A stretch of DNA of 64,000 nt from Bacteroidota bacterium (lineage in GTDB: Bacteria; Bacteroidota; Ignavibacteria; UBA10030; UBA6906), in assembly GCA_030835135.1 (NCBI GenBank), contig JAUQWO010000070.1, forward strand, positions 23,548 through 87,547. Reading direction: 5' to 3'. Below, piece by piece: positions 19,994 through 61,383 of the stretch (within the stretch, counting starts at the first letter, position 1; every line of letters begins with the position of its first letter). A model generated the notes under the pieces. The model was given only the letters and a program-made list of their open reading frames with translations, did not search any database and was not told where the DNA came from. The position numbers were made by a program, and so were the translations under genes.

Positions 19994-22213
<2,220 letters not shown>

Positions 22214-48463: not shown

Positions 48464-51013
48464 TCATCGCGAGCGATCCTGCGGATGCACCGGGTCGGGT
48501 TCGATCCAGGGGAGGAGGATCTCGATGATCCGTTTCGAGAATGCTCCGCGGGGATGGTTCACGCGCATCGAATTGAGGACCACCGAGAGGCTGCTCGCGA
48601 CCATCGCACCCGCGGCCACCAGGGGGTTCATCAGCCCGGAGACTGCGAGGGCGATCCCGATCGTATTGTACAGGAATGCCCAGGCAAGGTTTTGTTTCAT
48701 GATCCGGGTGCCCCGGCGGGCGATCTCGACCGCCTCCGGGATCAGCGTCAGGTCGTCGCGTAGGAGCGTGACCGGCGCCGCATGGATCGCCATCTCCGTC
48801 CCTCCGCCCATGGCGATACCAACGTCCGCCTGAGCCAGAGCCGGCGCATCGTTCACCCCATCGCCCACCATCACCACCCTCTTCCCCTGCTGCTGCAGAT
48901 GCGAGATCATTGCGATCTTCCCCGCCGGCAGAGCGCCCGCCGCGAACTCCCCGATACCCGCCTGTCCCGCGATCGCAGCCGTGGTGGCCTGCATGTCGCC
49001 CGAAAGCAGTTGCACCTCCACCCCGAGGGCCCCGAGTCGTTCCACCGCGGGCCGCGCGCTCGGTTTGAGAGAATCGCCCAGCACGAATGCAACAGGTGAC
49101 CCTCCAGGAGCGATCGCACCGTACACGACCGTCTTTCCTGACGCGGCGGCACGGACAGCCGCCTCTTCGGTCGCCGGCGCGGGACGGATCCCACTGCTTT
49201 CCAGGAATGCTCGTGAGCCAAGAATGATGTTGTTCCCCTCGACCGTCCCACGGATCCCCTGTCCATCAACGATCGTCACATCGGTCGCGGAGGCAAGCGT
49301 GAGCCGGTGCTTGCGCGCCACCCTGATGATCGCCTGCGCGACGGGATGACTCGAGGCCTGCTCGAGGGATGCCGCAAGACGAAGGAGGTCGCCGGTTTCC
49401 GGCGTCACACCATGGATCTCGTCGCAGTCAAAGTTCCCCGCCGTGAGCGTCCCGGTCTTGTCGAACACCGCCGCAGACGCTGATCCGAGGACCTCCAGAA
49501 CCATCCCGTCGCGGACGAGGATACCGCGGCGTGCAGCGTGGCCGATGCCCGCGGCGATCGCCAGAGGCGTTGCCATGCCCAGGACGCACGGGCAGGCGAT
49601 AAGGAGAACCGTGATCGCACGAAGGATGGATGCTTCCATGCCCGCACCGAGAGCGAACATCACGAGACCCGTGATCACCGACACGACGAGGACGCCGGGA
49701 ATGAACACGCGCGACACCCTGTCCACCATCCGTTCGAGGTCCGACTTGCTGGCCAGGGCGCCCTCGACCATGCGGATGATCGACGAGAGGATGGTGTCCT
49801 TTCCGCACGCATCGACACGGACCTCCATGATGCCGTTGACGTTCATGGAAGAAGCCAGCACCTTCGCTCCCTCGCACTTCTTCACGAGACGGGATTCACC
49901 GGTGAGCAACGATTCATCCACGACGCCACCTCCGACCACCACGGTACCGTCCGCAGGGATCTTCTCACCCGATCGCACGACGAAGATCTCCCCGGGCTGG
50001 AGCTTTTCGGTGGAGATCAGCCGTTCTCCCTCCGGGGCTTTCACGCGCACCTTCTTCGGCATCATGGTATACAGCCTGTGCACACCTTCCGACGCCCGGT
50101 GTTTCGCGCTCACCTCGATCAGTTTTCCGACCAGGAGAAGGGCCACCAGCCCGCCAGACGTGTCGAAGTAGAAGTTCCCGCCGCCGGTCAGCAGTTGGTG
50201 TACGCTGAAGAAGAATGCCGAGAATATCCCGATCGAGAAAAGGAGTTCCATCGTGGGGACGCCGCCCCGGAGGCTGCGGAAGGCCTTGCGGTGGATGGGC
50301 ATGCCACACCAGAAGACCGACGGAAGCGCGAAACCGAACAGGATCCACGGGAACATCGCCGTGATCGCGGGAGGGAGGTCCTGGAAGTACCCTACGTACA
50401 GCGTGTAGCTGAAGAACATCAGGTTGTTCATCAGGAAAAGGGCGATGCCCATCCTGAGGAGGAGCGAGCGCCGCTCGGCGGACCGCTCACCGGGGTCAGC
50501 ATCACGTTCCGTCGCCGCGTAGCCGAGATCAGCGATCCTCTGGCGGATGTGCTCCGCGGAGACCTGTGCCGGCCGGAAGACGACCTTCGCGGTGTCGGAT
50601 GCATACAACACGTTTGCCCGCACCACACCCGGTTCCGCCCCGATCACCTTCTCGATGAGCCAGGAACAGGACGAACACCACATGCCATCCACGTGGAGCA
50701 CGAGTTCGTCCCCGTCCTCCGGCATGTGCTCCTCCGCGGGCGCCACAACCTCATCCGTGACGGGCTTGCCGATGATGCCAAGACGCAGACTGGTCTGATA
50801 GAGGTCGGACGACCGGAAGTCACCCCCGAGCAGCCCGCTTTCGGCCAGGATGAGGAACACCTGACGGCATCCGGCACAGCAGAAGCGATAGTCGTTGCCA
50901 CGCCACTCTGCGTCGTGCGCATGCCGCGACAACGGCAGCGCACAGAGGTCGCATGCGGTGCCTGTCTCAGATCGGACAGTCGGGGCAACCGGGGAGAGGG
51001 ACGTGGTGTTCAT
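48464..51013 (-). CDS. ccoI: heavy-metal P1B-type ATPase (CcoI/FixI-like Cu transporter)
   Basis: N-terminal CDLC and FCCAGC, HMA GMWCSSC, TGES, CPC, DKTGT, GDGVND; at the end of the cbb3 operon. Confidence 0.9.
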   Translation of the reverse strand: MNTTSLSPVAPTVRSETGTACDLCALPLSRHAHDAEWRGNDYRFCCAGCRQVFLILAESGLLGGDFRSSDLYQTSLRLGIIGKPVTDEVVAPAEEHMPEDGDELVLHVDGMWCSSCSWLIEKVIGAEPGVVRANVLYASDTAKVVFRPAQVSAEHIRQRIADLGYAATERDADPGERSAERRSLLLRMGIALFLMNNLMFFSYTLYVGYFQDLPPAITAMFPWILFGFALPSVFWCGMPIHRKAFRSLRGGVPTMELLFSIGIFSAFFFSVHQLLTGGGNFYFDTSGGLVALLLVGKLIEVSAKHRASEGVHRLYTMMPKKVRVKAPEGERLISTEKLQPGEIFVVRSGEKIPADGTVVVGGGVVDESLLTGESRLVKKCEGAKVLASSMNVNGIMEVRVDACGKDTILSSIIRMVEGALASKSDLERMVDRVSRVFIPGVLVVSVITGLVMFALGAGMEASILRAITVLLIACPCVLGMATPLAIAAGIGHAARRGILVRDGMVLEVLGSASAAVFDKTGTLTAGNFDCDEIHGVTPETGDLLRLAASLEQASSHPVAQAIIRVARKHRLTLASATDVTIVDGQGIRGTVEGNNIILGSRAFLESSGIRPAPATEEAAVRAAASGKTVVYGAIAPGGSPVAFVLGDSLKPSARPAVERLGALGVEVQLLSGDMQATTAAIAGQAGIGEFAAGALPAGKIAMISHLQQQGKRVVMVGDGVNDAPALAQADVGIAMGGGTEMAIHAAPVTLLRDDLTLIPEAVEIARRGTRIMKQNLAWAFLYNTIGIALAVSGLMNPLVAAGAMVASSLSVVLNSMRVNHPRGAFSKRIIEILLPWIEPDPVHPQDRSR

Positions 51014-51025
51014 GCCTGTGGGCGC

Positions 51026-51151
51026 CTACTTTGCGAGGATCTTTCCATCCTCGTACTTCACCTCGTGGATGGGCGTGCGGACCGCGATCACTGCCATGAG
51101 CACGAGGATCGCGATGAAGACCGCGAGCGTGGCATAGATGCTTTTCTTCAT
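51026..51151 (-). CDS. 41-aa single-TM small protein (not in ORF track)
   Basis: MKKSIYATLAVFIAILVLMAVIAVRTPIHEVKYEDGKILAK*; ATG overlaps the ccoG stop (ATGA) and the stop lies 12 nt before the ATPase start. Confidence 0.7.
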   Translation of the reverse strand: MKKSIYATLAVFIAILVLMAVIAVRTPIHEVKYEDGKILAK

Positions 51152-52488
51152 TGCAGGGCCTTTGTCGATGAACCGCTTCCGGATATATCACTCTCCGGCA
51201 TGAAGAACACGATATCCGTCGTCGCATGGATCTCCGGATGCTCCGTACTTGTCGCCGTCAGCTGCAGACGGTTCGGACCCGGCCGCAATCGATGCACGGG
51301 GAGGTACAAACGCATCGTCGTTGCCCGGACCTCGCGCGATGACAGCGGGAACGGATTCCTGTCCAACGCTACCGCGCAGTCATGCGAGGGTGCTGCATCG
51401 GCGCCGCTGCAGGTAAGCAGGACGACGTCGTCGCTGAGACTGCGGTTACTGATCTTGATCGCATATTCATTGTACACGCGTCCATCATCCGTCACATGAT
51501 ACAGCGTCGACCGGTCACCGCTTGCAGTGAGAGAGAGCGGCATGCGGCCCTGAATGACGAACACCAGGACCAGTGCATACACCACCGTCAGGGCCAGGAC
51601 GCCCCAGCGCTTCGCATCGACGAAGCCAAGCTTCTCATACCACCGCATGCGGGGCCCGCCTTTCTCACCCCACGAGAACGCAATGAGGGTCGGTAGCGGG
51701 GTCTTGAGCCGGGACAGGATCGCCGTACAGGAGTCCACGCAGTCGCCGCAATGGGTGCATTCCGTCTGGTAGGGCGACTGGCGGATGTCGATGCCCATCG
51801 GACAATCGCGCACACACGCTTTGCATTCGATGCATTCGCCGTGCCGCTCCGTCGCATAACGGACGATCTGTGTCTTGCTGTCGGTGAAGACCGCCTGCAA
51901 CATGCCATAGGGGCAGGTCTTTGTGCAGAACTTCTCACGCCAGAACATGACATCCACCCAGACCAGGAGGGCGATGCCAATGATGATGCCAACGGTCACG
52001 GACCCGAGGCTCAGTGCGGCGATCTCCCCGAGCATCCGGTAGGGATCCACGAAATATGCAACGAGATTGAATCCCACGAACACCGACAGGGCGAACATGG
52101 CAGTGCCCAGCAGCACGTGGTGCGCGAGCCACCGCACGATGCCCTGCCCCGTTTTCCGGCCGGCACCCGGCACCCGGAGCCAGCGCCGGCTCTTGCCCTC
52201 GAGCCAGTAGTACAGCTCGTCGAGCACGGTCTGCGGACACATCCATCCGCACCATACGCGTCCATAAACCATCGCAAAGATCACGATGATCCAGAGAACG
52301 AGCATGATAACGAGGAACAGCAGATAGAACTCATCCACCCAGAGCACCGAGGTAAGGAAATAGAACCGCAGTGTGGGGATATCCAGGCGGAGGATGTTGA
52401 GGAACGGCAGGATGACGATCAGGAGTGTACTGAGCGTCTGGACGACCCGACGCTTGGCGCGGTACGTCGCAGGACTGGTGCGTGACAT
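51148..52488 (-). CDS. ccoG: cbb3 oxidase accessory ferredoxin-like protein CcoG/FixG
   Basis: CGWMCPQT, CTKTCPYG, CIECKAC...CP, CTHCGDC...C, C-terminal Ig-like domain. Confidence 0.9.
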   Translation of the reverse strand: MSRTSPATYRAKRRVVQTLSTLLIVILPFLNILRLDIPTLRFYFLTSVLWVDEFYLLFLVIMLVLWIIVIFAMVYGRVWCGWMCPQTVLDELYYWLEGKSRRWLRVPGAGRKTGQGIVRWLAHHVLLGTAMFALSVFVGFNLVAYFVDPYRMLGEIAALSLGSVTVGIIIGIALLVWVDVMFWREKFCTKTCPYGMLQAVFTDSKTQIVRYATERHGECIECKACVRDCPMGIDIRQSPYQTECTHCGDCVDSCTAILSRLKTPLPTLIAFSWGEKGGPRMRWYEKLGFVDAKRWGVLALTVVYALVLVFVIQGRMPLSLTASGDRSTLYHVTDDGRVYNEYAIKISNRSLSDDVVLLTCSGADAAPSHDCAVALDRNPFPLSSREVRATTMRLYLPVHRLRPGPNRLQLTATSTEHPEIHATTDIVFFMPESDISGSGSSTKALQ

Positions 52489-52563: not shown

Positions 52564-52755
52564 CTACTTTGCCTGCATCTGCTTCTGCAGCAGTTCCTGC
52601 TGCAGATCGTAGCTGGACTTCCAGTCCCAGTACGTGAAGAGATAGTAGATGCACACCGCGGTGATGACAACATACGCGAGCTTCAGGAACCACCCCGGTC
52701 CCTTCTTCTCATCCTGGAGGATGACCTCGTCATGCACATCGGTTGTCGCGCTCAT
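52564..52755 (-). CDS. heme-less CcoP N-terminal-like membrane peptide
   Basis: 63 aa; acidic N-terminus then PGWF..AYVVITAVCIYY TM helix; ATGA overlap with ccoO; no CxxCH. Confidence 0.7.
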   Translation of the reverse strand: MSATTDVHDEVILQDEKKGPGWFLKLAYVVITAVCIYYLFTYWDWKSSYDLQQELLQKQMQAK

Positions 52756-53399
52756 GGTGCCACCTCCTTCGCGGTCTGGGCCACAACCGGAGGTGCCTGC
52801 TGGAGTTCCGGATGCAGCATCTTATATTGTGCCACACCTTCTTCACGCCACTTGATGTTCGAACCGAGCTTCTGCAGATACGCAACAAGGGCGATCGCGT
52901 CAGGGGTCGGCTGGCCGGCCTTGGTGAAGAGCCAGGTGTACGAAGGCATGATCGAACCGGGCGACGTGCTGCGCGGATCGCGCAGGTGATTCAGGTGCCA
53001 GGTATTGTCGTACTTGCCGCCGACCCGCCCGAGGTCCGGACCGGTACGGCGCGTGCCGAGGAGGTGCGGCTTGTCGAACACATATTCACCCGGTTGTGAG
53101 GGTGGGGCCTGGATCAGGGCGCGGATCCCGAACCGTTTGAAGGTCTCCTCTTCACCCATCCCATAGCGCTGGGTCTCCTCCAGGAGACTGCGCACCTGCT
53201 GGGTGTGACAATAGACGCACCCTTCGCTGATATAGGTCTGCCGGCCCTGGAGTTCCAGCGCGGTATATGGTTTTGCATCCTTGCCGGGATCGTTCAGCGT
53301 CGGATCGCTCAGGGGGACCACCATCGTGAAGTATGAACCCAGGAACATGAACGCCGCCACTACCACGACAAGGAGGAACGCTTTCGCTTCGAGTTTCAT
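52752..53399 (-). CDS. ccoO: cbb3-type cytochrome c oxidase subunit II
   Basis: YTALELQGR.TYISEGCVYCHTQQVR, GTRRTGPDL.RVGG, SIMPSY. Confidence 0.95.
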   Translation of the reverse strand: MKLEAKAFLLVVVVAAFMFLGSYFTMVVPLSDPTLNDPGKDAKPYTALELQGRQTYISEGCVYCHTQQVRSLLEETQRYGMGEEETFKRFGIRALIQAPPSQPGEYVFDKPHLLGTRRTGPDLGRVGGKYDNTWHLNHLRDPRSTSPGSIMPSYTWLFTKAGQPTPDAIALVAYLQKLGSNIKWREEGVAQYKMLHPELQQAPPVVAQTAKEVAP

Positions 53400-53413
53400 G
53401 GTCTTGTCTCCTC

Positions 53414-54757
53414 TCAGGCCACTGCCGGTTGAACGCGTGCGGACGCTCCGCGCACGGTCTTGAAGATGTTATAGGCGAAGATCACCTGGGCCGTCACCAT
53501 CAGGATGGCGGAGAACATGCGCACCATGTAATATGGGAACATCGCCTTCACCGTGTCCAGGAATGCGATCGTGGGGTCCATCCACTGCAGGCCCTGGACG
53601 AATCCTCCGATCCACAGGCTGATCGCAAAGCCGAGGAATCCGACGAACGAGAGCCAGAAGTGCCATTCTGCGAGCTTGGCAGAGAAGAGGTCGGTCTTCA
53701 GGATCTTCGGCAGGGCGAAGTAGATGCCACCGATCGCAAAGAACGTAAAGGCGCCGAACACCGCCATGTGCGCATGACCCACGATCCAGTCGGTCTTGCT
53801 GACGATCATGTTCACGGTGCGCAGGGAGTGCATCGGGCCCTGGAAGCACGTGAGCAGGTAGAAGGTCGTCCCGGCGATGAAGAACTTCACCACATAGTTG
53901 CCGCTGGCCCACTTCCCGCGCAGGGTGCCATAGAAATTCGTCACGGCGGTCCACACCGGGATCAGGAGCGAGATACTGAACAGGATGGCGACCGTCTGGA
54001 GCCACACCGGAATGGGGCCAAAGATGATATGGTGCGCGCCGTTCCAGATGTACAGGAACGCGATCGTCCAGAAGCCGATGAGCGACAGCTTGTGGCTATA
54101 CAGCGGATTGCCGGTGGACTTCGGGATGAAATAGTATGCGATCGCGAGGCCGACCGGTGTGAAGATGAGGCCGACCGCATTGTGGCCGAACCACCAGTTC
54201 ACGTTCGCATCGTTCACGCCGGAATACACGGGCAGGTTCGCCACGATCCAGAGAATCGCCGTCCAGAGGAGTGTGCCCATGATATACCAGAGACTGGCGT
54301 ACATGTTGGCATGCCTCCGCCTGGCGATCGTCATGAAGATGTTCAGCCCGAACATCACCCACGCGATCGTCACCAGGATGTCCAGCCACACATTGAGTTC
54401 GAGATATTCCCGTGCCTGGGTGTCGCCGGCGGCCAGCGTCACCACCGCACCCAGGAGGACCACGACCCAGACCCCGAGGGTCGCGAGCCCGAGCTTCTCA
54501 CTCCAGAGTTTCACGCCCGCAAGGCGCGGGACGATATAGAAGCACAGGCCCATATCGGCGGCGAGGAGCCAGCCAAAGAGGACGCCGTTGGTGTGGATCA
54601 CGCGAATGCGTCCGACACCCAGTGCTGCAATGCCACCGAGGAACTCGGGGGCGACGAACTTGATCGCCATGATCAGGCCGATCAGGATCGTCACAAGGAA
54701 GAACGTGATGGCGGTGTAGAGAAACCACCTCGCGCTCTTGTCTACATGTTGTTCCAT
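53414..54757 (-). CDS. ccoN: cbb3-type cytochrome c oxidase subunit I
   Basis: HTNGV, WWFGHNAVG, LYIWNGAHH, TDWIVGHAH heme/CuB ligands; 12-TM pattern. Confidence 0.95.
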   Translation of the reverse strand: MEQHVDKSARWFLYTAITFFLVTILIGLIMAIKFVAPEFLGGIAALGVGRIRVIHTNGVLFGWLLAADMGLCFYIVPRLAGVKLWSEKLGLATLGVWVVVLLGAVVTLAAGDTQAREYLELNVWLDILVTIAWVMFGLNIFMTIARRRHANMYASLWYIMGTLLWTAILWIVANLPVYSGVNDANVNWWFGHNAVGLIFTPVGLAIAYYFIPKSTGNPLYSHKLSLIGFWTIAFLYIWNGAHHIIFGPIPVWLQTVAILFSISLLIPVWTAVTNFYGTLRGKWASGNYVVKFFIAGTTFYLLTCFQGPMHSLRTVNMIVSKTDWIVGHAHMAVFGAFTFFAIGGIYFALPKILKTDLFSAKLAEWHFWLSFVGFLGFAISLWIGGFVQGLQWMDPTIAFLDTVKAMFPYYMVRMFSAILMVTAQVIFAYNIFKTVRGASARVQPAVA

Positions 54758-54837
54758 TCTACTGCTCCTTTGATTGATGGTGGCTCACCCGCCCACGATC
54801 CCTCTGCACATGGTTCGTACTGCTTACTGATCCACTC

Positions 54838-55638
54838 TTAGTGCTGCTCCGTCTTCTCTCGCTCCGCGCGCCCGCACGCACGCAGATACGAGATCACGCT
54901 CCACCGCTCCACCTCCGTCAGCACCCCCACCCACGGCTGCATCGAGGTCCCCGGGACGCCATTGCTGATCGAATCGAACAGCCTGCTCTCCGCCAGATAG
55001 TCGATGAACGGCCTCTCCCCCCACGACACCACCGCCACGAGGTTGCGCGGACGCGGGGCCAGACTCTCGGCCAGACGTCCGAACCCATCGCCCCGCGCAC
55101 CGTGACAGCTTGCACAATAGGCAAGCCACACACCCTTGCCCTGCGCCTCGGCCGCCGCGGTGTCCGCAAGCGGATTCACGGCATCGGCGGGCACCCGCAC
55201 CGACATAATGCCATTGGGGATCGGGAGCTGGTCACCCGCCGTGAGAGACCGGATGTAATGGATCGCCTCCCAGCGCTTGTCGGCGGTGATCATGAGTTCG
55301 AAGGCCGGCATCGCGGTGCCGCGCACCCCGCCGGAAATGGACCCGTACATGCGTTCATCCGTGAGGTACGCGACGAACGGTGCATTCCGGAGATTCTGGG
55401 GGCGAGGATCGAGATTCATCGACTGGGGGCCCCGGCCATCGGCACGACGTCCATGGCATCCGGCACAATATTCAAAGAACACTGCCTTCCCCGCGGCGAT
55501 GGACTCCGGTGTCGATGTCGGTGCCTTCATCGGACCCTCTTGCCCCGCGGCCTGCATGAACATCAGTGCAAGGAGGACGACCCCGGGAAGAATGAAGACC
55601 CGGGCCACGGTGGCGCTGCTCCTGTTCGAAAGCTTCAT
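54838..55638 (-). CDS. exported diheme cytochrome c
   Basis: Two class-I domains, CAGCH...AMP and CASCH...SMQ; N-terminal hydrophobic helix. Start ATG 55638. Confidence 0.88.
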   Translation of the reverse strand: MKLSNRSSATVARVFILPGVVLLALMFMQAAGQEGPMKAPTSTPESIAAGKAVFFEYCAGCHGRRADGRGPQSMNLDPRPQNLRNAPFVAYLTDERMYGSISGGVRGTAMPAFELMITADKRWEAIHYIRSLTAGDQLPIPNGIMSVRVPADAVNPLADTAAAEAQGKGVWLAYCASCHGARGDGFGRLAESLAPRPRNLVAVVSWGERPFIDYLAESRLFDSISNGVPGTSMQPWVGVLTEVERWSVISYLRACGRAEREKTEQH

Positions 55639-55733
55639 CGGTTCGCCTTTGTGAATGCTGTTCTTCTGAAGACCACGAATGACCCTCTTCGCTGCCCGGT
55701 GTGCCTCGCCTGACATGATCCGTGCACGCAGGG

Positions 55734-56843
55734 TCAGTGTGTCGCGCCGGCCGAATCAGGCACGGCGTACACCACCGCGTTGTCCACCGTCAGCGTCTTC
55801 AACGTGCTCAGGTACAACGCGATGGCCTCAAGTTCGGTCGCGGCATACTTGAGATCGGGCATGACCGAACCACCCACCAGCGAACGCGGATTGAGATGAT
55901 GCTGCACCATCCATTCCTTCGTCCGCTGCAGCCCGATCACGCTGAGGTCCGGTCCGGTCTTCCCACCGACCCCGTTGATCGTATGACAGGCATCGCAGTA
56001 TTTGTCCGCGAAGGCCCGCTTCCCGGCCTCGACGGTCACGGGGACGTCCTTCGGACGCTCGGCACGCCATGCCTTGATCGCATTGTACCGTTCGACCGGT
56101 CCGTTCATCAGGTTCTCGCCGGTGAGGCTCTTCAGATAGATCACCAGGGCCTTCACCTCCTCCGGCGACAGGTCCATCTTCGGCATGATCGACTCGAAAT
56201 TGTTGGCCTTCGGGACCACGATCGATTCTTCGAGATAGGCAAGAGGCCACTTCGCGCCCACGCGGGTCAATTCCACCCCGAGCTTTCCATCCGACACGCC
56301 CTCGATCTTGTGGCAGCCGTAGCATGCCTTGGTGAAAAAGAGCCTCGCGCCCAGGGCGAGGTGCGGGGTCTCGGCGAGCGTAACGCCGTGACACTTCGCA
56401 CAACCCGACTCGATGTCGGCCCCTTTCAGGAGGGGTTCCATCCAGAACTTTGTGGTGCCGTGGGCGTCATCGGTGGCCAGTCCGCGGCCGTTGCCGTCAT
56501 GACATGTCGTGCACCCGAAGGTCCGGTACGGGTGGTTCCCGGGGATCGTCGGATGGGTCCGCAACGGTTGTGGCGCATCACTGAACCGCGCGTCATCGAT
56601 ACCGGCGTGGCAGGTCATGCAGCGGTCCACCCGTTGCTTGCCGAACCCGGTCACCACGAGCTGCTCGATGACGGGTGTGCGTTGTTCGAGCACCGCCCGC
56701 GTCTGCGGGTCCGTGGTCTTCTCGATCGCCAGCGCGAGATATTGCTTCTGGTAGGCCCGCCACTCGGTGTCGTAATTGCGGTAGATGATGAATGCATTGC
56801 CCAGGAGGAGCAGCACGGCGCCCGTGAGCAACGCTCTCTTCAT
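55734..56843 (-). CDS. membrane-anchored pentaheme cytochrome c
   Basis: Five CxxCH: CMTCH, CTTCH, CAKCH, CYGCH, CDACH; the last two are followed by SIMP and SVMP Met ligands; N-terminal TM. Start ATG 56843. Confidence 0.9.
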   Translation of the reverse strand: MKRALLTGAVLLLLGNAFIIYRNYDTEWRAYQKQYLALAIEKTTDPQTRAVLEQRTPVIEQLVVTGFGKQRVDRCMTCHAGIDDARFSDAPQPLRTHPTIPGNHPYRTFGCTTCHDGNGRGLATDDAHGTTKFWMEPLLKGADIESGCAKCHGVTLAETPHLALGARLFFTKACYGCHKIEGVSDGKLGVELTRVGAKWPLAYLEESIVVPKANNFESIMPKMDLSPEEVKALVIYLKSLTGENLMNGPVERYNAIKAWRAERPKDVPVTVEAGKRAFADKYCDACHTINGVGGKTGPDLSVIGLQRTKEWMVQHHLNPRSLVGGSVMPDLKYAATELEAIALYLSTLKTLTVDNAVVYAVPDSAGATH

Positions 56844-56886
56844 GGTGTTTCCGATACGCATCGCAGTCTCTTTCCTGATGATCGGC

Positions 56887-57420
56887 CTAGTGACCGGTGG
56901 TTGCTTCCCATGGCAGAACGAATCCCCAGTTCGGCCCGCGGAAGTACATGCCGATGATGATAAGAATGACCATCACAACGAGGAAGGTCAGGAACAAGCC
57001 GTTCGCGAGCCACCGCTCTCTGGCGAACCACACCCCGATGCCGACCCTCTTGCGGTCGATATACGGCACCAGCATGAGTCCCAGGACGATCACGGTGGGC
57101 ACCAGCACGCCGCCAACGAACGCGGAATAGCTCACCAGCTCCTGCAGGCCGAGGAAATACCACGGGGCTTTGGCCGGATTCGGCGGAGAATTCGGATTGG
57201 CGATCTCTTCGAGCGGCGCATCGATGAGAAAGGCGGCACCCAGGAGGCATGCGGCGACGACAAGGAAGATCACCAGCTCGCGCACGAGCAGATGCGGCCA
57301 CGCGTACACCGTATCTTCATCGAGGCCGACCGTGGGCCTGGTCCCCTTGACGAGTTCCATCAGCCCATAGGTCTTCCGGGGATCACGGGGGTATACCTGG
57401 GTGGTATCGACGTCCTTCAT
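56887..57420 (-). CDS. petD: cytochrome b C-terminal subunit (subunit IV-like)
   Basis: WPHLLVRE, APLEE.ANP, PAKAPWYFLGLQELV, PYID; start ATG 57420, 4 nt after the petB stop. Confidence 0.85.
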   Translation of the reverse strand: MKDVDTTQVYPRDPRKTYGLMELVKGTRPTVGLDEDTVYAWPHLLVRELVIFLVVAACLLGAAFLIDAPLEEIANPNSPPNPAKAPWYFLGLQELVSYSAFVGGVLVPTVIVLGLMLVPYIDRKRVGIGVWFARERWLANGLFLTFLVVMVILIIIGMYFRGPNWGFVLPWEATTGH

Positions 57421-57424
57421 GGCC

Positions 57425-58201
57425 TCACTCCTTGATCGCAGGTGTGTCATTGTCGGCGGGGTGCGACAGCCCCCCATCCTTCCGTATCCGCCAGAAATGG
57501 ACCGCGAGGAAGATGGAGAGCAACCCCGGGAGGATCACCACATGCAGCACATAGAACCGGATCAGCGCCTCCTGCCCCACGCTGTCGGAGCCCAGCAGGA
57601 AGCGGCGCAGCGGCTCCCCCACCACCGGTGCATAGCCCGCGATCGAGGTCCCGACCGTGATGGCCCAGAACGCCAATTGGTCCCACGGGAGCAGATACCC
57701 CGTGAACGACAGTCCGAGCGTCAGCAGCAGAAGGATGATCCCGATGATCCAGTTGAACTCACGGGGCGGTTTATAAGCCCCGGTGAAGAACACCCGTGCC
57801 ATATGGAGGACGACGAAGAAGACCATCGCTTCGGCCGCCCACTTGTGCACGTTCCTCAGCACGAACCCGAAATCCACCGCCGACCGGAGGTCGAGCATGC
57901 GGCCGTAGGCCTCGGTGGCGGAGGGGAAATAGTAGAACATGAGCCAGACGCCGGTGAAGGTCAGGAACACGAACAGGCACGTCGCGATCACCCCGAGGCC
58001 GAACGTGTACGTGAAGCGCAGCGAGTGCTTCGCGACCTTCACGGGATGGATGTGCAGGAACAGACTGTTGAACACCGCATAGGATGCCCCTTCACCATCG
58101 CGGGGCAGGCGGCCATACCGGAAGATCGACCGGTAGACCGATTCGAAGAACATCCCGACCGCGGTGCGCTTGTCGGGCGTGGGAGTGGGCGCTTGCATCA
58201 T
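57425..58201 (-). CDS. petB: cytochrome b6-like subunit
   Basis: Four heme His (VHKW, LHMARV, LHVV, VHFW), [14 protein letters not shown]; 14-residue His spacing in helix D. Confidence 0.92.
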
Positions 58202-58246: not shown

Positions 58247-58723
58247 TCACACGCGGAGATACGTTCCCGCGGGGATCTTCACGTTCTTGTCGACTTCCAG
58301 TTCGCCGTTGGGTGCGATGCTCACCTGATACCACGCCAGAGGCGAGGGCGCCGGACCGCCGGTCACGAACCCGTCGTTGTCGAACTGACTGCCATGACAC
58401 GGGCATTCGAACCCGCCTTCGGTCGCCCGGACCGTGCAACCGAGATGGGTGCACGTGACGGAGATCGCGGCGAATCCTTCCTTCTCCCGGACCACCACGA
58501 CGCGTTCGTTCTCCCGGGTCTCCTTGATGCCGACGGTGTATTCATCCGGACGTCCGACGCGGATGCGCGTGGGCGGGCCGTAGTCCACGGCAGGTTTCAG
58601 GTACATCAGATTACCGAGCACGCCGACCGCGCCCGATAATCCGACGCCGAGCCAGCCCAGCGTGCTCAGGAATGTCCGCCGGTCGATCTCCGGCTGCTGC
58701 ATACGTGTGGGTTTCTTTTTCAC
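58247..58723 (-). CDS. petC: Rieske 2Fe-2S subunit
   Basis: Tat motif DRRTFL, CTHLGC and CPCHGS; GTG start after GGGAG (alternative ATG 58702). Confidence 0.92.
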
Positions 58724-58806: not shown

Positions 58807-58950
58807 TCAATCGTCGTCGCGCAGCATCTGGTACTTCGGCTCTTCCACGTTCTTGAACTGGTTCGTCTTCGCGGCGTACACGAACCCGAGCGCGAAGATG
58901 ATGCCGAGGACGACGCTCAGAAAGACAAGGAAATACAGGGAGACGAGCAT
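58807..58950 (-). CDS. ccoS: cbb3 maturation protein CcoS/FixS
   Basis: 47 aa, TM helix then [18 protein letters not shown]; AGGAG RBS. Confidence 0.82.
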
Positions 58951-58958
58951 GACCGCTC

Positions 58959-60857
58959 CTATCTGGTTTCGATCGACAACTGGTGCGCGCACGTGAAGTG
59001 CTCCATCGTGATCGCGCCCGTGGGACAACGCTTCGCGCAGAAGCCGCACCGTACACAGAGCTCTTCATCCTTCAGCATGGCCGACCCGAGGGTCCGGAGG
59101 GCCTCCGGTCCGGCGCCGGCCGCAAGGCCCTCTGCGTCCGCTCCATAGCGCTCCACCAGCGCCAGCTCGAGCCGCGGCTCGCGGACGATCTGCGAGAGTG
59201 GCACCAGGGCGAGGCAGTAGGTCGGACACACATCCACACATCCCGCGCACAGGATGCACGCATCACCATTGAAGATGGTGTTGATATGGCATTTCAGGCA
59301 GCGGCTCCCCTGTTCCCCCGCTACGCCCGGATCGAAGCACTTCTCGACCAGGGCATCGGAGGACGCGCGCCCCTGCGGATTCAGTGCGGGTGGGTCGGAG
59401 CGCTCGATCTGCAGATAGGCATCACGCATGGTGTGCGACGGAGCGGGCATGGTGAATGTCCCGGTCCGCACTTCGTGCAGGGAACCCTCCCGCAGATACT
59501 CATCGATCGAGACCACGGCGCGCTGCGCGGATGCAACAGCGTGAATGAACAGCCGTGCGCCCTCCGCAACATCACCACAGGCAAAGATCCCGGGGATGGT
59601 CGTCGCCTTGGTCGTCGGATCGATCTTGATGATACCACCGGGGGTGAGTTCAAGCGCGGACTCACCCGCCGTGAAGCCGGGATCCACGGTCTGACCGATG
59701 GAGAGCATCACGGTGCTCGCCGGGATGACCTCCCCGGGCTCGTCGGCATACACCGGAGCGAATCGCCCCTGCGCATCGAACACCGACAGGACCTTGCGCG
59801 TCGCCAGACCGGTGACGTGGCCATTGCTCCCCACGATCTCCAGAGGTCCGCGGGAGGGGTGCACGATCACGCCTTCTTCTTCGCCTTCGGTGATCTCGAT
59901 CTCATCCGCGGGCATTTCGTCGCGCGATTCGAGGCACACCAGGTGCACGTGCTTGGCACCGTGACGCAGGGCCTGCCGTGATGCATCGGCGGCCTCGTAG
60001 AAATCCTGGGATTCGGCACGGAACACCCCGCCGATGCGGACCGCGGAGCGGGCCACGTCGAACGCCACGTTGCCGCCGCCAATGACGACGACGGAGTCAC
60101 CGAGCGTGATGTTACCGCCGGAGTTGAGGGTCTTCAGAAAATCGATGCCGTGGACAACGCCATGGAGGTCGGAGCCCTTGATCCGGAGATCACGCCCACG
60201 TTGCAGGCCGGCGGCGATGAGGATCGCAGCGAATCCATCCCTGCGGAGTTCTTGGAGCGTAACGTGCTCGCCGATCCGGGTGTTCAGGCGCAACTGTACG
60301 CCCAGCCCGAGGATGGCGTTGATCTCTGCCTGGACGAGGTCGCGGGGGAGCCGGTAGGTCGGCACGCCCGTCATCAACATGCCGCCCGCCACGCGGCCGG
60401 CTTCGAACACGGTGACCTGGTAGCCGAGCAGAGCAAGGTCATGCGCAGCGGTCATCCCCGCCACCCCGGAACCGACAACGGCAACGCGCGTCCCGGCTTT
60501 CGGGTTCAGAGGATCACGGCGTGCGGTCGAGTGACGGAGGGTCGCCCTGGGATCGCCGGCTTCCGCGCCATAACGTTCCGTCACGAAGCGCTTGAGCGCG
60601 CGGATCGTCACCGGATCGTCGATGCTCCCCCGCCGGCATTCCATTTCACACGGTGCCCCACACACGCGTCCGCAGATGGATGCGAAGGGATTCGGACCAC
60701 GCGCGATCGCATACGCCTCTTCGTACCTGCCCTCGGCGATGGCGATGACATAGCCACGGGCATCGGTGTGCACCGGGCAACCCCACTGACACTTCACCTG
60801 ACGCTGCCAGTAGGTGACGTCCGGGATCTCTACGTTGAATGAGCGCTGTGTCGACAT
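58959..60857 (-). CDS. GltD/NfnB-like FAD/Fe-S NAD(P)H oxidoreductase with C-terminal 2x[4Fe-4S] ferredoxin
   Basis: [43 protein letters not shown]; [24 protein letters not shown]. Start ATG 60857, 4 nt after the Rrf2 stop. Confidence 0.9.
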
Positions 60858-60861
60858 GGCT

Positions 60862-61332
60862 TCAATCAGTTGGTGTGGAGGACTGATCCCTCGTGCCGAT
60901 GAGGTCCTTGTACGCCCGCTTGTTGGTCGTTGCTTCTGCTGCCAGGCTCGTAAGTGTGCGGGCAGCCAGGTGATTCCGGAGTTTCTGTTGGGCTTCCATC
61001 CAGACGGTATGGACGGGACACCAACCGTCACGGGGACAGATCTTCTCGCCCATGAGGCACTGATTCAGGGAGATCGGCCCTTCCACCGACTCGATGATCT
61101 CCAGAAGCGTGATCATGTCGGCATCACCACTCATCTGGATACCACCGCCGACACCTCGCTGGGTATTGATGAGTCCTGACCGGGAAAGGCTCGAGACGAT
61201 CTTGCGAAGGAACGTCTGTGGTATCTCCCACTCCGCCGCGATGTTCGAGACGTTCGTCGTGGTTCCGGGCGGCAGGCTCGCGAGATGCAGCATCGTTCGT
61301 ACCGCGTATTCTGAAGCTTGAGTAATCTGCAT
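60862..61332 (-). CDS. Rrf2-family Fe-S transcriptional regulator (IscR/NsrR-like)
   Basis: MQITQASEYAVR, RGVGGG, ITLLEIIESVEG, C-x6-C-x5-C-x2-H cluster ligands. Start ATG 61332. Confidence 0.92.
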   Translation of the reverse strand: MQITQASEYAVRTMLHLASLPPGTTTNVSNIAAEWEIPQTFLRKIVSSLSRSGLINTQRGVGGGIQMSGDADMITLLEIIESVEGPISLNQCLMGEKICPRDGWCPVHTVWMEAQQKLRNHLAARTLTSLAAEATTNKRAYKDLIGTRDQSSTPTD

Positions 61333-61383
61333 GAAGGGATCACATCCGTGTAGGTGATCTACTAATGTGCAAGACATATGCCA

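What the first reader, a model, noticed from the sequence alone, without database searches (positions are those of the whole stretch)
58959..60857. GltD/NfnB-like flavoprotein as a probable cytoplasmic subunit of the Rieske/cyt b complex
Seen: no signal peptide, N-terminal Fe-S cysteines, two Rossmann motifs, an extra C-terminal ferredoxin, and no gltB or nfnA partner in the window. The second nucleotide site ends in CLES rather than the YRR typical of NADPH-using GltD. Inference: it exchanges electrons between NAD(H) and the cytoplasmic side of cyt b, either by quinol-based bifurcation to reduce NAD+ or by NADH feeding straight into the complex.
Basis: partly seen in the sequence, partly recalled or inferred. 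Interest (0 to 1): 0.72.

Follow-up and report, generated by a model that had tools for sequence, protein, structure and literature searches.

The report
NAD(H) flavoprotein of a Rieske/cytochrome b–cbb3 operon
This gene encodes an iron-sulfur flavoprotein that almost always sits in operons for Rieske/cytochrome b complexes, as in anammox bacteria; here the operon also carries a cbb3 oxygen reductase in an ordinary heterotroph, which could make a long-debated NAD-linked cytochrome bc complex testable in aerobes.

Summary
Window 58959-60857 (-) encodes a 632-aa cytoplasmic protein. It has a truncated GltD-type Fe-S domain, FAD and NAD(P) Rossmann sites, a C-terminal 2x[4Fe-4S] ferredoxin and 'CLES' in place of 'YRR'. 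No gltB or nfnA lies in the window.

It is the second gene of one tightly packed operon: Rrf2, flavoprotein, CcoS, Rieske, cyt b, subunit IV, pentahaem c, dihaem c, CcoN, CcoO, CcoG, CcoI.

- 66 of 80 related genome loci keep the gene on the same strand as Rieske/cyt b. Thirteen others are cut by contig ends.
- 10 of 11 more distant clusters are also Rieske/cyt b-linked, most without cbb3. Rieske/cyt b is therefore the constant partner.
- Relatives in anammox-order (Brocadiales) operons are 40% identical over the full length. They are reciprocal nearest relatives.
- E. coli GltD, PreT, AegA, YgfT and YgfK fall outside its clade.

It is best read as the cytoplasmic NAD(H) module of an 'APWY/subfamily G' Rieske/cyt b complex, a kind already proposed for Kuenenia. 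The cbb3-linked, haem-cn-less, NADH-type version looks undescribed. No physical contact with cyt b was tested. The direction of electron flow (NADH in, or quinol-driven NAD+ reduction) is unresolved.

The parts
58959..60857 (-). Fe-S flavoprotein (632 aa). It has a truncated GltD-type [4Fe-4S] domain, an FAD site, an NAD(H) site and a C-terminal 2x[4Fe-4S] ferredoxin domain.
   Evidence: Pfam; alignments; AF2 pLDDT 92.7; Foldseek top hits 9bov_A, 8oh5_C and 9n5u_A.
60573..60797 (-). N-terminal Fe-S domain (residues 21-95) with six Cys: C23, C27, C62, C66, C70, C74. It lacks the leading CxxC pair of GltD and PreT.
   Evidence: The Fer4_20 match starts at profile position 30. E. coli GltD and PreT carry RCLxC just before CxxxCP.
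60456..60473 (-). FAD Rossmann motif GSGVAG (residues 129-134).
60063..60080 (-). NAD(P) Rossmann motif GGGNVA (residues 260-265).
59958..60029 (-). Insertion of about 24 residues (277-300) that repeats the Rossmann helix: [13 protein letters not shown] then [13 protein letters not shown]. It is the only low-confidence part of the model.
   Evidence: Two overlapping HMMER stretches on 9bov_A; pLDDT below 50 at 281-300; present in about half of the clade and in 3 of 71 sequences outside it.
59925..59936 (-). 'CLES' (residues 308-311) at the end of the second strand of the NAD(P) fold. E310 replaces the 2'-phosphate-binding Arg.
   Evidence: Alignments to NfnABC and StnC and to E. coli GltD and PreT; conservation.
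59289..59303 (-). R519-C520-L-K-C523. This invariant pair probably supplies the two Cys missing from the N-terminal domain, a permuted arrangement.
   Evidence: Invariant in 122 sequences. The 16 conserved Cys equal 4 x 4 ligands. This is an inference; no coordinates were available.
59022..59258 (-). Ferredoxin domain: CxxCxxCxxxCP (534-545) and CxxCxxCxxxCP (601-612), separated by a helical insert of about 56 residues.
   Evidence: Pfam Fer4 and Fer4_7; linker length across the clade; secondary structure.
60862..61377 (-). Rrf2-family regulator with Cys107, Cys114 and Cys120. It is the first gene of the operon, and its stop lies 4 nt before the flavoprotein ATG.
   Evidence: Pfam and NCBIfam; sequence; conserved at the head of the operon in most loci.
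58807..58950 (-). ccoS/fixS (47 aa), a cbb3 maturation factor. It starts 8 nt after the flavoprotein stop.
   Evidence: Pfam FixS, E 7e-12; sequence.
58247..58723 (-). Rieske protein with a twin-arginine signal (DRRTFL) and the motifs CTHLGC and CPCHGSQF (the 'S-F' signature).
   Evidence: signature classes from PMC4122944.
57425..58201 (-). Short b6-type cytochrome b. The four haem His are H119, H133, H220 and H235. It has an N-terminal FLH50-I-H52-PVK motif. There is no CxGG motif, so no haem cn.
   Evidence: Pfam; motif survey of 69 cyt b sequences; alignment.
56887..57420 (-). Subunit IV (PetD-like) with the Qo motif APWY.
   Evidence: Pfam; motif; NCBIfam ExtQ-like.
55734..56861 (-). Membrane-anchored pentahaem cytochrome c (five CxxCH) with a FixO-like C-terminal part.
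54838..55716 (-). Dihaem cytochrome c (CcoP-like).
52752..54757 (-). cbb3-type oxidase subunits CcoN (53414-54757) and CcoO (52752-53399).
   Evidence: Pfam COX1 and FixO; NCBIfam ccoN and ccoO matches, both below their cutoffs.
48464..52488 (-). cbb3 assembly genes CcoG (51148-52488) and the CcoI copper ATPase (48464-51013).

Best explanation
The protein is the cytoplasmic (n-side) NAD(H)-binding module of a non-canonical Rieske/cytochrome b complex. That complex belongs to the 'APWY clade' of Kao & Hunte and 'subfamily G' of Dibrova et al. Here it is encoded in one operon with its own cbb3 oxygen reductase.

Proposed mechanism:
- A hydride is exchanged between NAD(H) and FAD.
- Single electrons then pass along four [4Fe-4S] clusters. 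Two lie in the GltD-type domain, one of them completed by the relocated C520/C523 pair. Two lie in the C-terminal ferredoxin domain.
- The chain ends at the n-side of cyt b, at haem bN, possibly through an extra haem held by the conserved His50 of the two cyt b N-termini.

Shown here: the domain and cofactor-motif content, the operon structure, conserved linkage to Rieske/cyt b genes across phyla, and homology to the oxidoreductases of Brocadiales Rieske/cyt b operons.

Inferred: physical docking on cyt b, the assignment of Cys ligands, NADH rather than NADPH specificity, and the direction of flow.

I put the association itself at about 0.8. For direction in this operon I lean slightly to NADH oxidation. 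NADH would feed electrons into bN and the n-side quinone site, so the operon would encode a self-contained NADH-to-O2 chain that still uses the Q cycle. That is about 0.4 absolute, against about 0.3 for quinol-driven NAD+ reduction.
For: Operon and synteny:
- Intergenic gaps are 4 and 8 nt.
- 66 of 80 genome loci from Ignavibacteriota, Bacteroidota, Gemmatimonadota, Acidobacteriota and others keep the gene on the same strand as Rieske/cyt b. In 13 more, a contig end lies within about 6 kb of the gene. One locus is truly different.
- The gene has moved within the operon. It is at the head in the window's type and between CcoO and CcoG in Acidobacteriota. It never left the operon.
- 10 of 11 more distant clusters (36-49% identity) are next to or near Rieske/cyt b, and only one of these has cbb3.
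- L053 has the flavoprotein, Rieske, cyt b, subunit IV and a multihaem c with overlapping stop and start codons and no oxidase.

Homology to the known kind:
- The Brocadiales-type protein P0301 is 40% identical over residues 9-619.
- It sits in an operon with Rieske, cyt b, a subunit IV of about 250 aa, a multihaem c and an HAO-like protein.
- Searching back with P0301 gives the window's family as the next best hits after its own clade.
- The solved relatives are the ones reported for Kuste4570: NfnABC (9bov/9bp5) and FwdF (5t5i) (PMC12954380).

Cofactors: 16 Cys are invariant or nearly invariant in 122 sequences.

Reasons for leaning to NADH oxidation:
- The host is a polysaccharide-degrading heterotroph.
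- The operon ends in an O2 reductase.
- NADH to quinone is downhill at any O2 level. By my own estimate, bifurcation to NAD+ stalls when the c-haems are reduced.
- The nucleotide site is of the NAD type.
- Dibrova et al. view the ancestral cyt b as the membrane anchor of such a dehydrogenase.
Against: - No interface with cyt b was modelled or measured. No natural fusion to Rieske or cyt b was found among the longer relatives.
- One close cluster (P0125, L082) is not linked to Rieske/cyt b. One Methylomirabilota homologue follows nuoC, nuoD and a nuoG-like gene instead.
- The closest curated cyt b family (ExtP of Geobacter) belongs to a cluster with no such flavoprotein gene.
- The neighbour-joining clade that unites the Rieske/cyt b-linked proteins has weak bootstrap support. 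It excludes the large multidomain proteins in about one third of replicates.
- Against the NADH-in direction: the authors of the measured Kuenenia Rieske potentials (+303 and +335 mV) argue for NAD(P)+ reduction (PMC12954380). The window's Rieske carries the S-F signature, predicted at about +260 mV. NADH entry at the n-side gives no energetic gain over an ordinary NDH-2.
Confidence: 0.45

Rival explanations
1. The complex is the same but runs the other way. Menaquinol oxidation at the Qo site is bifurcated. One electron goes through Rieske, the c-haems and cbb3 to O2. The other goes through haems bP and bN and the four Fe-S clusters to FAD and reduces NAD+. This is the mechanism proposed for the anammox complexes.
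For: - The protein is homologous to the Brocadiales Rieske/cyt b oxidoreductases.
- Published Kuenenia data (Rieske +303 and +335 mV, AF3 cofactor chain) are interpreted this way (PMC12954380).
- The window's Rieske has the S-F signature, predicted at about +260 mV, and the Qo motif is APWY. The host probably uses menaquinone (my own knowledge of these phyla). This combination would make the Qo semiquinone very reducing.
- A directly attached oxidase would keep the high-potential branch oxidised.
- The constant pairing of the flavoprotein with Rieske/cyt b, while p-side partners vary (oxidase, HAO-like, Mo-enzyme, multihaems), fits a role in the low-potential branch.
Against: - A heterotroph has no obvious need to make NADH from quinol.
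- By my own estimate the reaction is close to equilibrium and becomes unfavourable when the c-haems are reduced. That is the low-O2 condition in which cbb3 oxidases are used.
- The S-F and APWY features are properties of the whole clade. The closest curated cyt b family (ExtP) belongs to a Geobacter cluster with no flavoprotein gene.
- Nothing in the sequence fixes a direction.
Confidence: 0.3
2. The flavoprotein is the missing electron donor of CcoG, the Fe-S cupric reductase that supplies Cu(I) for cbb3 assembly. On this reading it is a maturation factor and not part of the respiratory chain.
For: - It lies next to ccoS in the window.
- In Acidobacteriota it lies just upstream of ccoG, directly adjacent in Thermoanaerobaculia, Holophagae and Vicinamibacteria loci.
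- To my knowledge CcoG's physiological donor is unknown.
Against: - Nine of the ten Rieske/cyt b-linked distant clusters, and L053, carry the gene with no cbb3, CcoG or CcoI in the DNA read.
- The common denominator is Rieske/cyt b.
- A four-cluster wire with an FAD/NAD module is a large investment for a trace-metal assembly step.
Confidence: 0.05
3. It is an independent soluble NAD(P)H:acceptor oxidoreductase, for example a GltD, PreT or AegA-like enzyme partner or a ferredoxin reductase. On this reading its place in the operon is only regulatory or accidental.
For: - The fold and sequence are those of the GltD/NfnB/DPD superfamily.
- Generic annotations such as 'glutamate synthase beta subunit-like' and 'formate dehydrogenase beta subunit' are given by sources.
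- P0125 and L047 show that some relatives live in other contexts.
Against: - No partner gene lies in the window.
- Linkage to Rieske/cyt b is conserved across at least six phyla, with translational coupling.
- E. coli GltD, PreT, AegA, YgfT and YgfK fall outside the clade.
- No NCBIfam model reaches its cutoff.
Confidence: 0.1

Closest known systems
NAD(P) oxidoreductase subunits of the anammox Rieske/cyt b complexes (Kuste4570 of Kuste4569-4574 and Kustd1483 of Kustd1480-1485, Kuenenia stuttgartiensis). The function is proposed, not demonstrated.
   Same: [quoted passage not shown]
- The size is about 600-680 aa, with the same order of domains: FAD, NAD(P) site and four Fe-S sites.
- The solved-structure relatives are the same: NfnABC (9bp5/9bov) and FwdF (5t5i).
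- Relatives from Brocadiales operons of the same composition are 40% identical over the full length and are reciprocal nearest relatives.
   Different: - The p-side partner here is a cbb3 O2 reductase, not an HAO-like octahaem protein.
- The host is a heterotroph with T9SS-type secreted glycoside hydrolases.
- The cyt b lacks the CxGG haem-cn cysteine.
- The FAD-proximal cluster has all four Cys (C62 present). The Brocadiales relatives have Leu at that position, which fits the [3Fe-4S] modelled in Kuenenia.
- A 24-residue helix duplication sits in the NAD domain.
- The Kuenenia sequences themselves were not on hand. The comparison was made through Brocadiaceae, Bathyanammoxibius and other Brocadiales homologues.
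GltD-like NADP(H) module of the Bfu-family enzymes NfnABC (9bov_A, 9n5u_A) and StnABC (8oh5_C)
   Same: These are the best matches among solved structures by sequence (273 bits) and by fold (Foldseek E 2e-48). They share the RCLxC pair placed after the FAD/NAD domains, and a role as a two-electron to one-electron converter feeding an Fe-S chain.
   Different: Those are domains of soluble 950-1180-aa subunits that partner NuoEF-like bifurcating modules. They carry 'YRR' (NADPH). They are only 26-30% identical to the window protein, and no such partners lie in the window.
Glutamate synthase small subunit GltD, NfnB, and PreT/DPD domain I-III
   Same: The superfamily and fold are shared: a Fer4_20 Fe-S domain plus FAD and NAD(P) Rossmann domains.
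   Different: - The Cys pattern differs: six Cys plus a relocated pair, instead of eight contiguous Cys.
- There is an extra ferredoxin domain.
- The nucleotide site is 'CLES', not 'YRR'.
- No GltB, NfnA or PreA neighbour is present.
- The E. coli paralogues lie outside the clade.
'APWY clade' (Kao & Hunte 2014) or 'subfamily G' (Dibrova et al. 2013, 2017) Rieske/cyt b complexes, including Geobacter ExtOPQ
   Same: A split b6-type cyt b plus subunit IV, the Qo motif APWY, a Rieske S-F signature and multihaem c partners in place of c1 or f. Dibrova et al. already note that these cyt b genes lie near large NAD(P)-binding Fe-S oxidoreductase genes.
   Different: The Geobacter Ext cluster has no flavoprotein gene. 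I found no description of the fusion of such a complex with ccoNO-GIS in one operon in the papers searched. The Ignavibacterium album genome paper lists the cbb3 oxidase but no Rieske/cyt b complex.

Membership tests
Rieske/cyt b-associated NAD(P) oxidoreductase (Kuste4570/Kustd1483 kind) | Gene encoded in one operon with Rieske, cyt b and subunit IV | tested here: met
   Operon map and junctions. Conserved in 66 of 80 loci and in 10 of 11 distant clusters.
Rieske/cyt b-associated NAD(P) oxidoreductase (Kuste4570/Kustd1483 kind) | Architecture: Fe-S domain, FAD, NAD(P) site and a C-terminal dicluster ferredoxin, giving four Fe-S sites in about 600-680 aa | tested here: met
   Pfam; 16 conserved Cys; confident single-chain model with pTM 0.91.
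Rieske/cyt b-associated NAD(P) oxidoreductase (Kuste4570/Kustd1483 kind) | Homology to the oxidoreductases of anammox-order Rieske/cyt b operons | tested here: met
   P0178 (the 98%-identical representative of P0301) is 40% identical to the window protein over residues 9-619, at 400 bits. The reverse search returns the window's family next. The operons are in L088-90, L097 and L098. The Kuenenia sequences themselves were not compared.
Rieske/cyt b-associated NAD(P) oxidoreductase (Kuste4570/Kustd1483 kind) | Physical presence in the membrane complex (complexome evidence in Kuenenia) | not testable with these tools
   Needs BN-PAGE and mass spectrometry, or cryo-EM. No multimer prediction was available.
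Rieske/cyt b-associated NAD(P) oxidoreductase (Kuste4570/Kustd1483 kind) | Three-Cys ([3Fe-4S]) cluster next to FAD, as modelled for Kuenenia | tested here: not met
   The window has C62. The Brocadiales relatives have Leu there (PMC12954380). This is a difference, probably not a defining trait.
Glutamate synthase small subunit (GltD) | Contiguous N-terminal C-x2-C-x4-C-x3-CP plus a second four-Cys motif | tested here: not met
   The first CxxC is absent from the N-terminus. RCLKC sits at residues 519-523.
Glutamate synthase small subunit (GltD) | NADPH site 'YRR' | tested here: not met
   'CLES'.
Glutamate synthase small subunit (GltD) | Adjacent gltB and grouping with bona fide GltD | tested here: not met
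   No GltB domains in the window. E. coli GltD lies outside the clade. The rest of the genome could not be examined.
NfnB (NADH-dependent ferredoxin:NADP+ oxidoreductase large subunit) | Adjacent nfnA, and a bifurcating FAD with two exits | tested here: not met
   No NfnA-type domains in the window. Only one Fe-S path can be inferred from the sequence. Flavin chemistry is not testable here.
APWY-clade / subfamily G Rieske/cyt b complex | Split cyt b plus subunit IV with the Qo motif APWY, and a Rieske of Mid+ or high-potential signature | tested here: met
   KAPWYF in subunit IV and CPCHGSQF in Rieske; classes from PMC4122944.
APWY-clade / subfamily G Rieske/cyt b complex | CxGG motif for haem cn (present in many short cyt b of subfamily G) | tested here: not met
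   The window has TFGLGV. 61 of 69 surveyed cyt b sequences lack the Cys.
cbb3-type cytochrome c oxidase operon (ccoNO(P) plus ccoGIS) | CcoN, CcoO, a dihaem c, CcoG, CcoI and CcoS all present | tested here: met
   Pfam. The NCBIfam ccoN and ccoO equivalogs match but below their cutoffs (359 vs 583 and 135 vs 201 bits), so this is a divergent subtype.

The most novel reading that the evidence does not exclude
The operon encodes an electron-bifurcating menaquinol:O2/NAD+ oxidoreductase supercomplex. The pull of a directly attached high-affinity oxidase would drive the second quinol electron uphill through the b-haems and four Fe-S clusters to NAD+. The NADH would be recycled through complex I, raising the proton yield per O2. 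If so, the mechanism proposed only for anammox bacteria would be widespread in aerobic Acidobacteriota, Ignavibacteriota, Bacteroidota and Gemmatimonadota.
Probability: 0.3. Interest if true: 0.85.

Novelty: new variant of a known kind. Interest (0 to 1): 0.6.

Why it matters
Rieske/cyt b complexes with a cytoplasmic NAD(P) oxidoreductase have been a hypothesis since 2011-2013. They are known mainly from anammox bacteria, which are slow-growing and hard to manipulate, and the reaction has never been shown.

This window shows the same module wired to a cbb3 oxygen reductase in a heterotroph. At least 512 species-level genomes encode a relative of the protein. The 80 closest are mostly Acidobacteriota and Ignavibacteriota/Bacteroidota, and 65 of them show it in such a Rieske/cyt b-cbb3 operon. 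Some lineages have cultured members, for example a MAG assigned to Ignavibacterium album and Chloracidobacterium.

That gives tractable aerobic systems with a simple acceptor (O2). In these one can ask whether such complexes oxidise NADH through the Q cycle or reduce NAD+ by quinol bifurcation.

It also corrects annotation. The protein is routinely labelled 'glutamate synthase beta subunit-like' or 'formate dehydrogenase beta subunit'. The Rieske/cyt b complex next to cbb3 is not mentioned in at least one genome paper.

Tried and rejected
- **First AlphaFold2 run.** With 18 sequences it gave pLDDT 64.6, with the Fe-S regions unresolved. It was replaced by a 122-sequence alignment, which gave pLDDT 92.7. 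Model coordinates are not exposed, so Cys-Cys distances and the C520/C523 assignment could not be measured.
- **Natural fusions.** I looked for fusions of the flavoprotein to Rieske or cyt b among longer relatives. Only TPR, receiver, FlpD/MvhD, DHO_dh and DUF2148 fusions turned up.
- **Phylogeny.** The best neighbour-joining tree puts the window in a 74-leaf clade with the CLES-type Rieske/cyt b-linked proteins and the Brocadiales relatives. Bootstrap support is weak: the E. coli paralogues are excluded in 69% of replicates, and the large multidomain proteins in about one third. A 'YRR'-type Rieske/cyt b-linked protein (P0235) falls outside the clade. I therefore rest the case on synteny and reciprocal similarity, not on the tree.
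- **CcoG-donor idea.** It was raised because of the position next to ccoS and ccoG. It was set aside because most distant relatives are Rieske/cyt b-linked without any cbb3 genes.
- **His50 as a marker.** I tried to equate cyt b His50 with Kuenenia His43/His62. His50 is present in 69 of 69 cyt b sequences whose N-terminus aligns, and in the Bathyanammoxibius cyt b. Two Brocadiales cyt b genes start after a stop codon and lack the whole extension, and the ExtP model also starts at this region. The equivalence remains unproven, and the motif is not specific to flavoprotein-linked complexes.
- **Kuenenia sequences.** I tried to reach them by name. Only Brocadiales, Brocadiaceae and Bathyanammoxibius homologues were named.
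- **Literature.** Searches for a prior description of the Rieske/cyt b-cbb3-flavoprotein operon found none. The library is incomplete, so this is not proof of absence.
Full report
**1. What is there**

The minus strand of the window between 48464 and 61377 carries twelve genes with very short gaps:

| Gene | Coordinates | Notes |
|---|---|---|
| Rrf2-family regulator | 60862-61377 | three Cys at 107, 114, 120 |
| Flavoprotein (the finding) | 58959-60857 | 632 aa |
| ccoS/fixS | 58807-58950 | 47 aa; Pfam FixS, E 7e-12 |
| Rieske protein | 58247-58723 | twin-arginine signal |
| Short b6-type cytochrome b | 57425-58201 | |
| Subunit IV | 56887-57420 | |
| Pentahaem cytochrome c | 55734-56861 | |
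| Dihaem cytochrome c | 54838-55716 | |
| CcoN | 53414-54757 | |
| CcoO | 52752-53399 | |
| CcoG | 51148-52488 | |
| CcoI copper ATPase | 48464-51013 | |

The Rrf2 stop lies 4 nt before the flavoprotein ATG. The flavoprotein stop lies 8 nt before the ccoS ATG. A consensus scan found no more promoter-like or terminator-like sites than in shuffled sequence.

**2. The observation**

The longer ORF from the GTG at 61031 overlaps Rrf2, and homologues all start at MSTQRSF.

- Pfam finds a Fer4_20 domain at residues 21-95, but only from profile position 30 onward. It also finds Pyr_redox_2 at 124-444 and a dicluster ferredoxin at 534-617.
- The Rossmann motifs are GSGVAG (129-134) and GGGNVA (260-265).
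- There is no signal peptide or membrane helix.
- 'CLES' (308-311) aligns with 'YRR(S/T)' of the NADPH-binding NfnABC and StnC chains and with 'YRRD' of E. coli GltD. E. coli PreT, annotated as NAD+-dependent, has 'AREE' at this site. An acidic residue at this position is the classical mark of NAD over NADP. NADH specificity is therefore a fair inference, though untested.
- Pfam scans of all ORFs of 200 aa or more found no GltB or NfnA domains anywhere in the window.

The rest of the window encodes glycoside hydrolases, pectinesterase, a heparinase-like lyase, SusC-like TonB receptors, proteins with T9SS sorting tails and KatG. This points to a polysaccharide-degrading member of the Fibrobacterota-Chlorobiota-Bacteroidota group.

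**3. Cofactor sites**

In an alignment of 122 family members, the invariant residues include C23, C27, C66, C70, C74, R519, C520, C523, C534, C537, C540, C544, C601, C604, C607 and C611. C62 is nearly invariant.

Canonical GltD and PreT start with RCLxC-x4-C-x3-CP. This family lacks that first pair at the N-terminus and carries an invariant RCLKC after the FAD/NAD domains. The NfnABC and StnC relatives do the same.

Sixteen cysteines make four sets of four. I infer four [4Fe-4S] clusters, with C520/C523 completing the cluster begun by C23 and C74.

The AlphaFold2 model built on the 122-sequence alignment is confident as one body (pLDDT 92.7, pTM 0.91). The exception is residues 281-300. That stretch is a duplication of the Rossmann helix ([13 protein letters not shown] then [13 protein letters not shown]). 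It occurs in about half of the clade and almost nowhere else.

**4. Relatives and their neighbourhoods**

- The family is large: 7,999 proteins at E <= 1e-10 among the 8,000 candidates scored, and 3,398 cluster representatives at E <= 1e-30.
- At least 512 species-level genomes encode a relative.
- In the 80 closest genome loci, 24 have the window's order, with the flavoprotein ahead of Rieske. These come from MAGs labelled Ignavibacteriota, Bacteroidota, Gemmatimonadota, Phycisphaerales and others.
- Another 42, nearly all labelled Acidobacteriota, have the flavoprotein between CcoO and CcoG in the same operon.
- Thirteen are cut by contig ends, nine of them still showing part of the cluster.
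- One, a Methylomirabilota MAG, has the gene after nuoC, nuoD and a nuoG-like gene.

The gene has therefore moved within the operon but stayed in it.

To learn which part of the operon it belongs to, I looked at more distant relatives (36-49% identity). Ten of eleven clusters are next to or near Rieske/cyt b genes. Only one of these ten also has cbb3. The eleventh (P0125, 46% identity) is not linked to Rieske/cyt b.

The partners on the outer side of the membrane vary:
- HAO-like octahaem proteins in Brocadiales;
- a molybdopterin enzyme and giant multihaem proteins in a Chloroflexota MAG;
- plain multihaem cytochromes under sigma-54 two-component control in others.

A Nitrospirae MAG (L053) has the flavoprotein, Rieske, cyt b, subunit IV and a multihaem c, with an overlapping stop and start and nothing else respiratory. 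The constant partner is the Rieske/cyt b core, not the oxidase or its assembly factors.

**5. Link to the known anammox complexes**

The literature held here describes two Kuenenia Rieske/cyt b complexes with a putative cytoplasmic NAD(P) oxidoreductase, Kuste4570 and Kustd1483.

- An AlphaFold3 model traces FAD, four Fe-S clusters and a predicted extra haem b at the cyt b dimer interface.
- The measured Rieske potentials are +303 and +335 mV.
- The proposal is that quinol bifurcation drives NAD(P)+ reduction (PMC12954380).
- Dibrova et al. 2017 note that 'subfamily G' cyt b genes lie near such oxidoreductase genes 'in many other cases' (PMC5600118).

The window protein matches this kind in four ways.

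- Its best solved relatives by sequence and fold are NfnABC (9bov, the same protein as 9bp5), StnC and, for the C-terminal part, FwdF (5t5i). NfnABC and FwdF are the two entries reported for Kuste4570.
- A cluster named Brocadiales, Planctomycetes or Ca. Avalokitesvara (P0178/P0301) is 40% identical over residues 9-619.
- Its homologues in a Brocadiaceae MAG and in Ca. Bathyanammoxibius amoris sit in operons with Rieske, cyt b, a long subunit IV of about 260 aa, a multihaem c and an HAO-like protein.
- Searching back from P0301 gives first its own clade and then the window's family.

The Brocadiales proteins have Leu at position 62. This fits the three-Cys cluster next to FAD modelled in Kuenenia. 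The window has Cys there.

The Kuenenia sequences themselves were not available, so orthology to Kuste4570 is inferred through these relatives.

A neighbour-joining tree of the shared core puts E. coli GltD, PreT, AegA, YgfT and YgfK outside. It puts the window inside a clade of about 600-680-aa proteins with the Rieske/cyt b-linked ones. Bootstrap support is weak.

No NCBIfam model reaches its cutoff for the protein.

**6. The membrane partner**

- Subunit IV carries the Qo motif APWY, and the Rieske protein carries CPCHGSQF. Kao & Hunte 2014 define an uncharacterised 'APWY clade' whose Rieske proteins have Mid+ to high predicted potentials.
- The cyt b has the four haem histidines but no CxGG cysteine, so it has no haem cn.
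- Its N-terminal extension carries F-L-H50-x-H52-P-V-K. His50 is present in all 69 cyt b sequences from the related loci whose N-terminus aligns, and in the Bathyanammoxibius cyt b as VLH34IQP. It may correspond to the His that AlphaFold3 uses for the extra haem in Kuenenia.
- That equivalence is unproven. Two Brocadiales cyt b genes lack the extension altogether.
- The nearest curated cyt b family, Geobacter ExtP, covers this region although its cluster has no flavoprotein gene.

**7. How it most likely works**

Shown here: a cytoplasmic protein with motifs for FAD, an NAD-type nucleotide site and sixteen conserved Cys, which I read as four Fe-S clusters. It is co-transcribed and co-inherited with Rieske/cyt b.

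Inferred: it docks on the n-side of the cyt b dimer and links NAD(H) to haem bN.

The direction is open.

For NADH oxidation in this operon:
- The host is a heterotroph.
- The operon ends in an O2 reductase.
- The reaction is downhill at any O2 level.
- The nucleotide site is of the NAD type.
- With a working Q cycle, this would give the same yield as NDH-2 plus bc. By my own calculation that is 4 H+ released per 2 electrons.

For quinol-driven NAD+ reduction:
- The protein is homologous to the anammox system and the published reasoning applies.
- The Rieske signature is S-F in what is probably a menaquinone organism.
- The flavoprotein stays with Rieske/cyt b whatever the p-side partner.

By my own estimate the bifurcating route is feasible only while the c-haems are kept oxidised. 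That is awkward for a high-affinity oxidase branch.

My absolute probabilities are: association about 0.8, NADH-in about 0.4, NAD+ reduction about 0.3.

**8. Rivals**

- A role as electron donor to CcoG fits the positions next to ccoS and ccoG. It fails on the many relatives that have no cbb3 genes.
- A free-standing GltD, PreT or NfnB-type enzyme fails on synteny, architecture, the nucleotide motif and the absence of partner genes. The rest of the genome could not be checked.

**9. Novelty**

The kind is known as a hypothesis for anammox bacteria, and the gene linkage has been remarked on more broadly.

The following looks undescribed in the papers I could search:
- the operon that joins this module and its Rieske/cyt b complex to ccoNO and ccoGIS under an Rrf2 regulator;
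- its wide spread in aerobic or microaerobic heterotrophs;
- the variant features: no haem cn, a four-Cys proximal cluster, an NAD-type site and a helix duplication.

The Ignavibacterium album genome paper lists the cbb3 oxidase but states that the organism has ACIII instead of a cyt b-Rieske complex. A MAG assigned to that species carries the full cluster (L009). I did not check the type-strain genome.

I rate it a new variant of a known kind. It is of moderate to good interest because it offers tractable, O2-respiring systems for an unresolved question.

Noticed in passing
window 60862-61377 (-): An Rrf2-family regulator with a C-x6-C-x5-C triad (Cys107, 114, 120) heads the operon, 4 nt upstream of the flavoprotein gene. 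It is conserved at the operon head in most related loci in both gene orders. This suggests Fe-S-based (O2, NO or redox) control of the whole Rieske/cyt b-cbb3 unit.
   Followed up: partly
window 58807-58950 (-): A 47-aa ccoS/fixS gene lies between the flavoprotein and Rieske genes.
   Followed up: yes
window 59958-60029 (-), residues 277-300: A tandem duplication of the Rossmann helix in the NAD domain. It is the only low-confidence part of the model. It is present in about half of the clade (also in Nitrospirota P0288 and in P0129) and in 3 of 71 sequences outside. Its function is unknown, and it could be a docking loop.
   Followed up: partly
window 59289-59303 (-), residues 519-523: The RCLxC cysteine pair starts the Fe-S domain in GltD and PreT. 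Here, and in NfnABC and StnC-type relatives, it sits after the FAD/NAD domains, which looks like a circular permutation of the cluster ligands.
   Followed up: partly
window 58043-58066 (-), cyt b residues 46-53: The N-terminal motif SLFLH50IH52P of cyt b. His50 is present in 69 of 69 related cyt b sequences whose N-terminus aligns. It is a candidate ligand for an extra interfacial haem like the one AlphaFold3 predicts in Kuenenia, but it is absent from two Brocadiales cyt b genes.
   Followed up: partly
L047 5944-11242: In a Methylomirabilota MAG, a 47%-identical homologue with extra insertions directly follows nuoC, nuoD and a short nuoG-like gene, with no nuoE or nuoF. It may serve there as an alternative NAD(P)H module of another complex.
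   Followed up: no
L034 3890-7118 and other Acidobacteriota loci: In Acidobacteriota, cyt b and subunit IV are fused (446 aa), and the multihaem and dihaem cytochromes c are fused (603 aa). Two small membrane proteins follow CcoO, one with a FixS-like 'KYRMLKDDD' tail. A DsbD_2/TauE-like membrane protein sits between the flavoprotein and CcoG.
   Followed up: no
window 55734-56861 (-): The pentahaem cytochrome c that replaces cytochrome c1 or f has a C-terminal part matching FixO/CcoO (Pfam residues 301-357). This hints at a direct structural link between the bc part and the oxidase.
   Followed up: no
L009 (MAG assigned to Ignavibacterium album): This MAG carries the full Rrf2, flavoprotein, CcoS, Rieske, cyt b, c and CcoNO cluster, with about 2 kb inserted after the flavoprotein gene. 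The 2012 genome paper states that the species has ACIII instead of a cyt b-Rieske complex.
   Followed up: partly
L081, L099, L100: In three distant clusters the flavoprotein, Rieske and cyt b genes follow a sigma-54 two-component system, not an Rrf2 gene. In two of them (L081, L100) two unannotated genes lie in between.
   Followed up: no
window 1-48000: The rest of the window is a polysaccharide-utilisation landscape: GH3, GH120 with CBM6, pectinesterase, a heparinase/alginate lyase-like protein of 1283 aa, SusC-like TonB receptors and three proteins with T9SS sorting tails. It also has KatG (20021-22213). G+C rises from 0.54 at the left end to about 0.62.
   Followed up: partly
window 49538-51499 (+), 53429-54841 (+), 55722-56957 (+) and others: Long ORFs run antisense to the real genes. 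They are typical of high-G+C DNA and have no family matches. They should not be annotated as genes.
   Followed up: no
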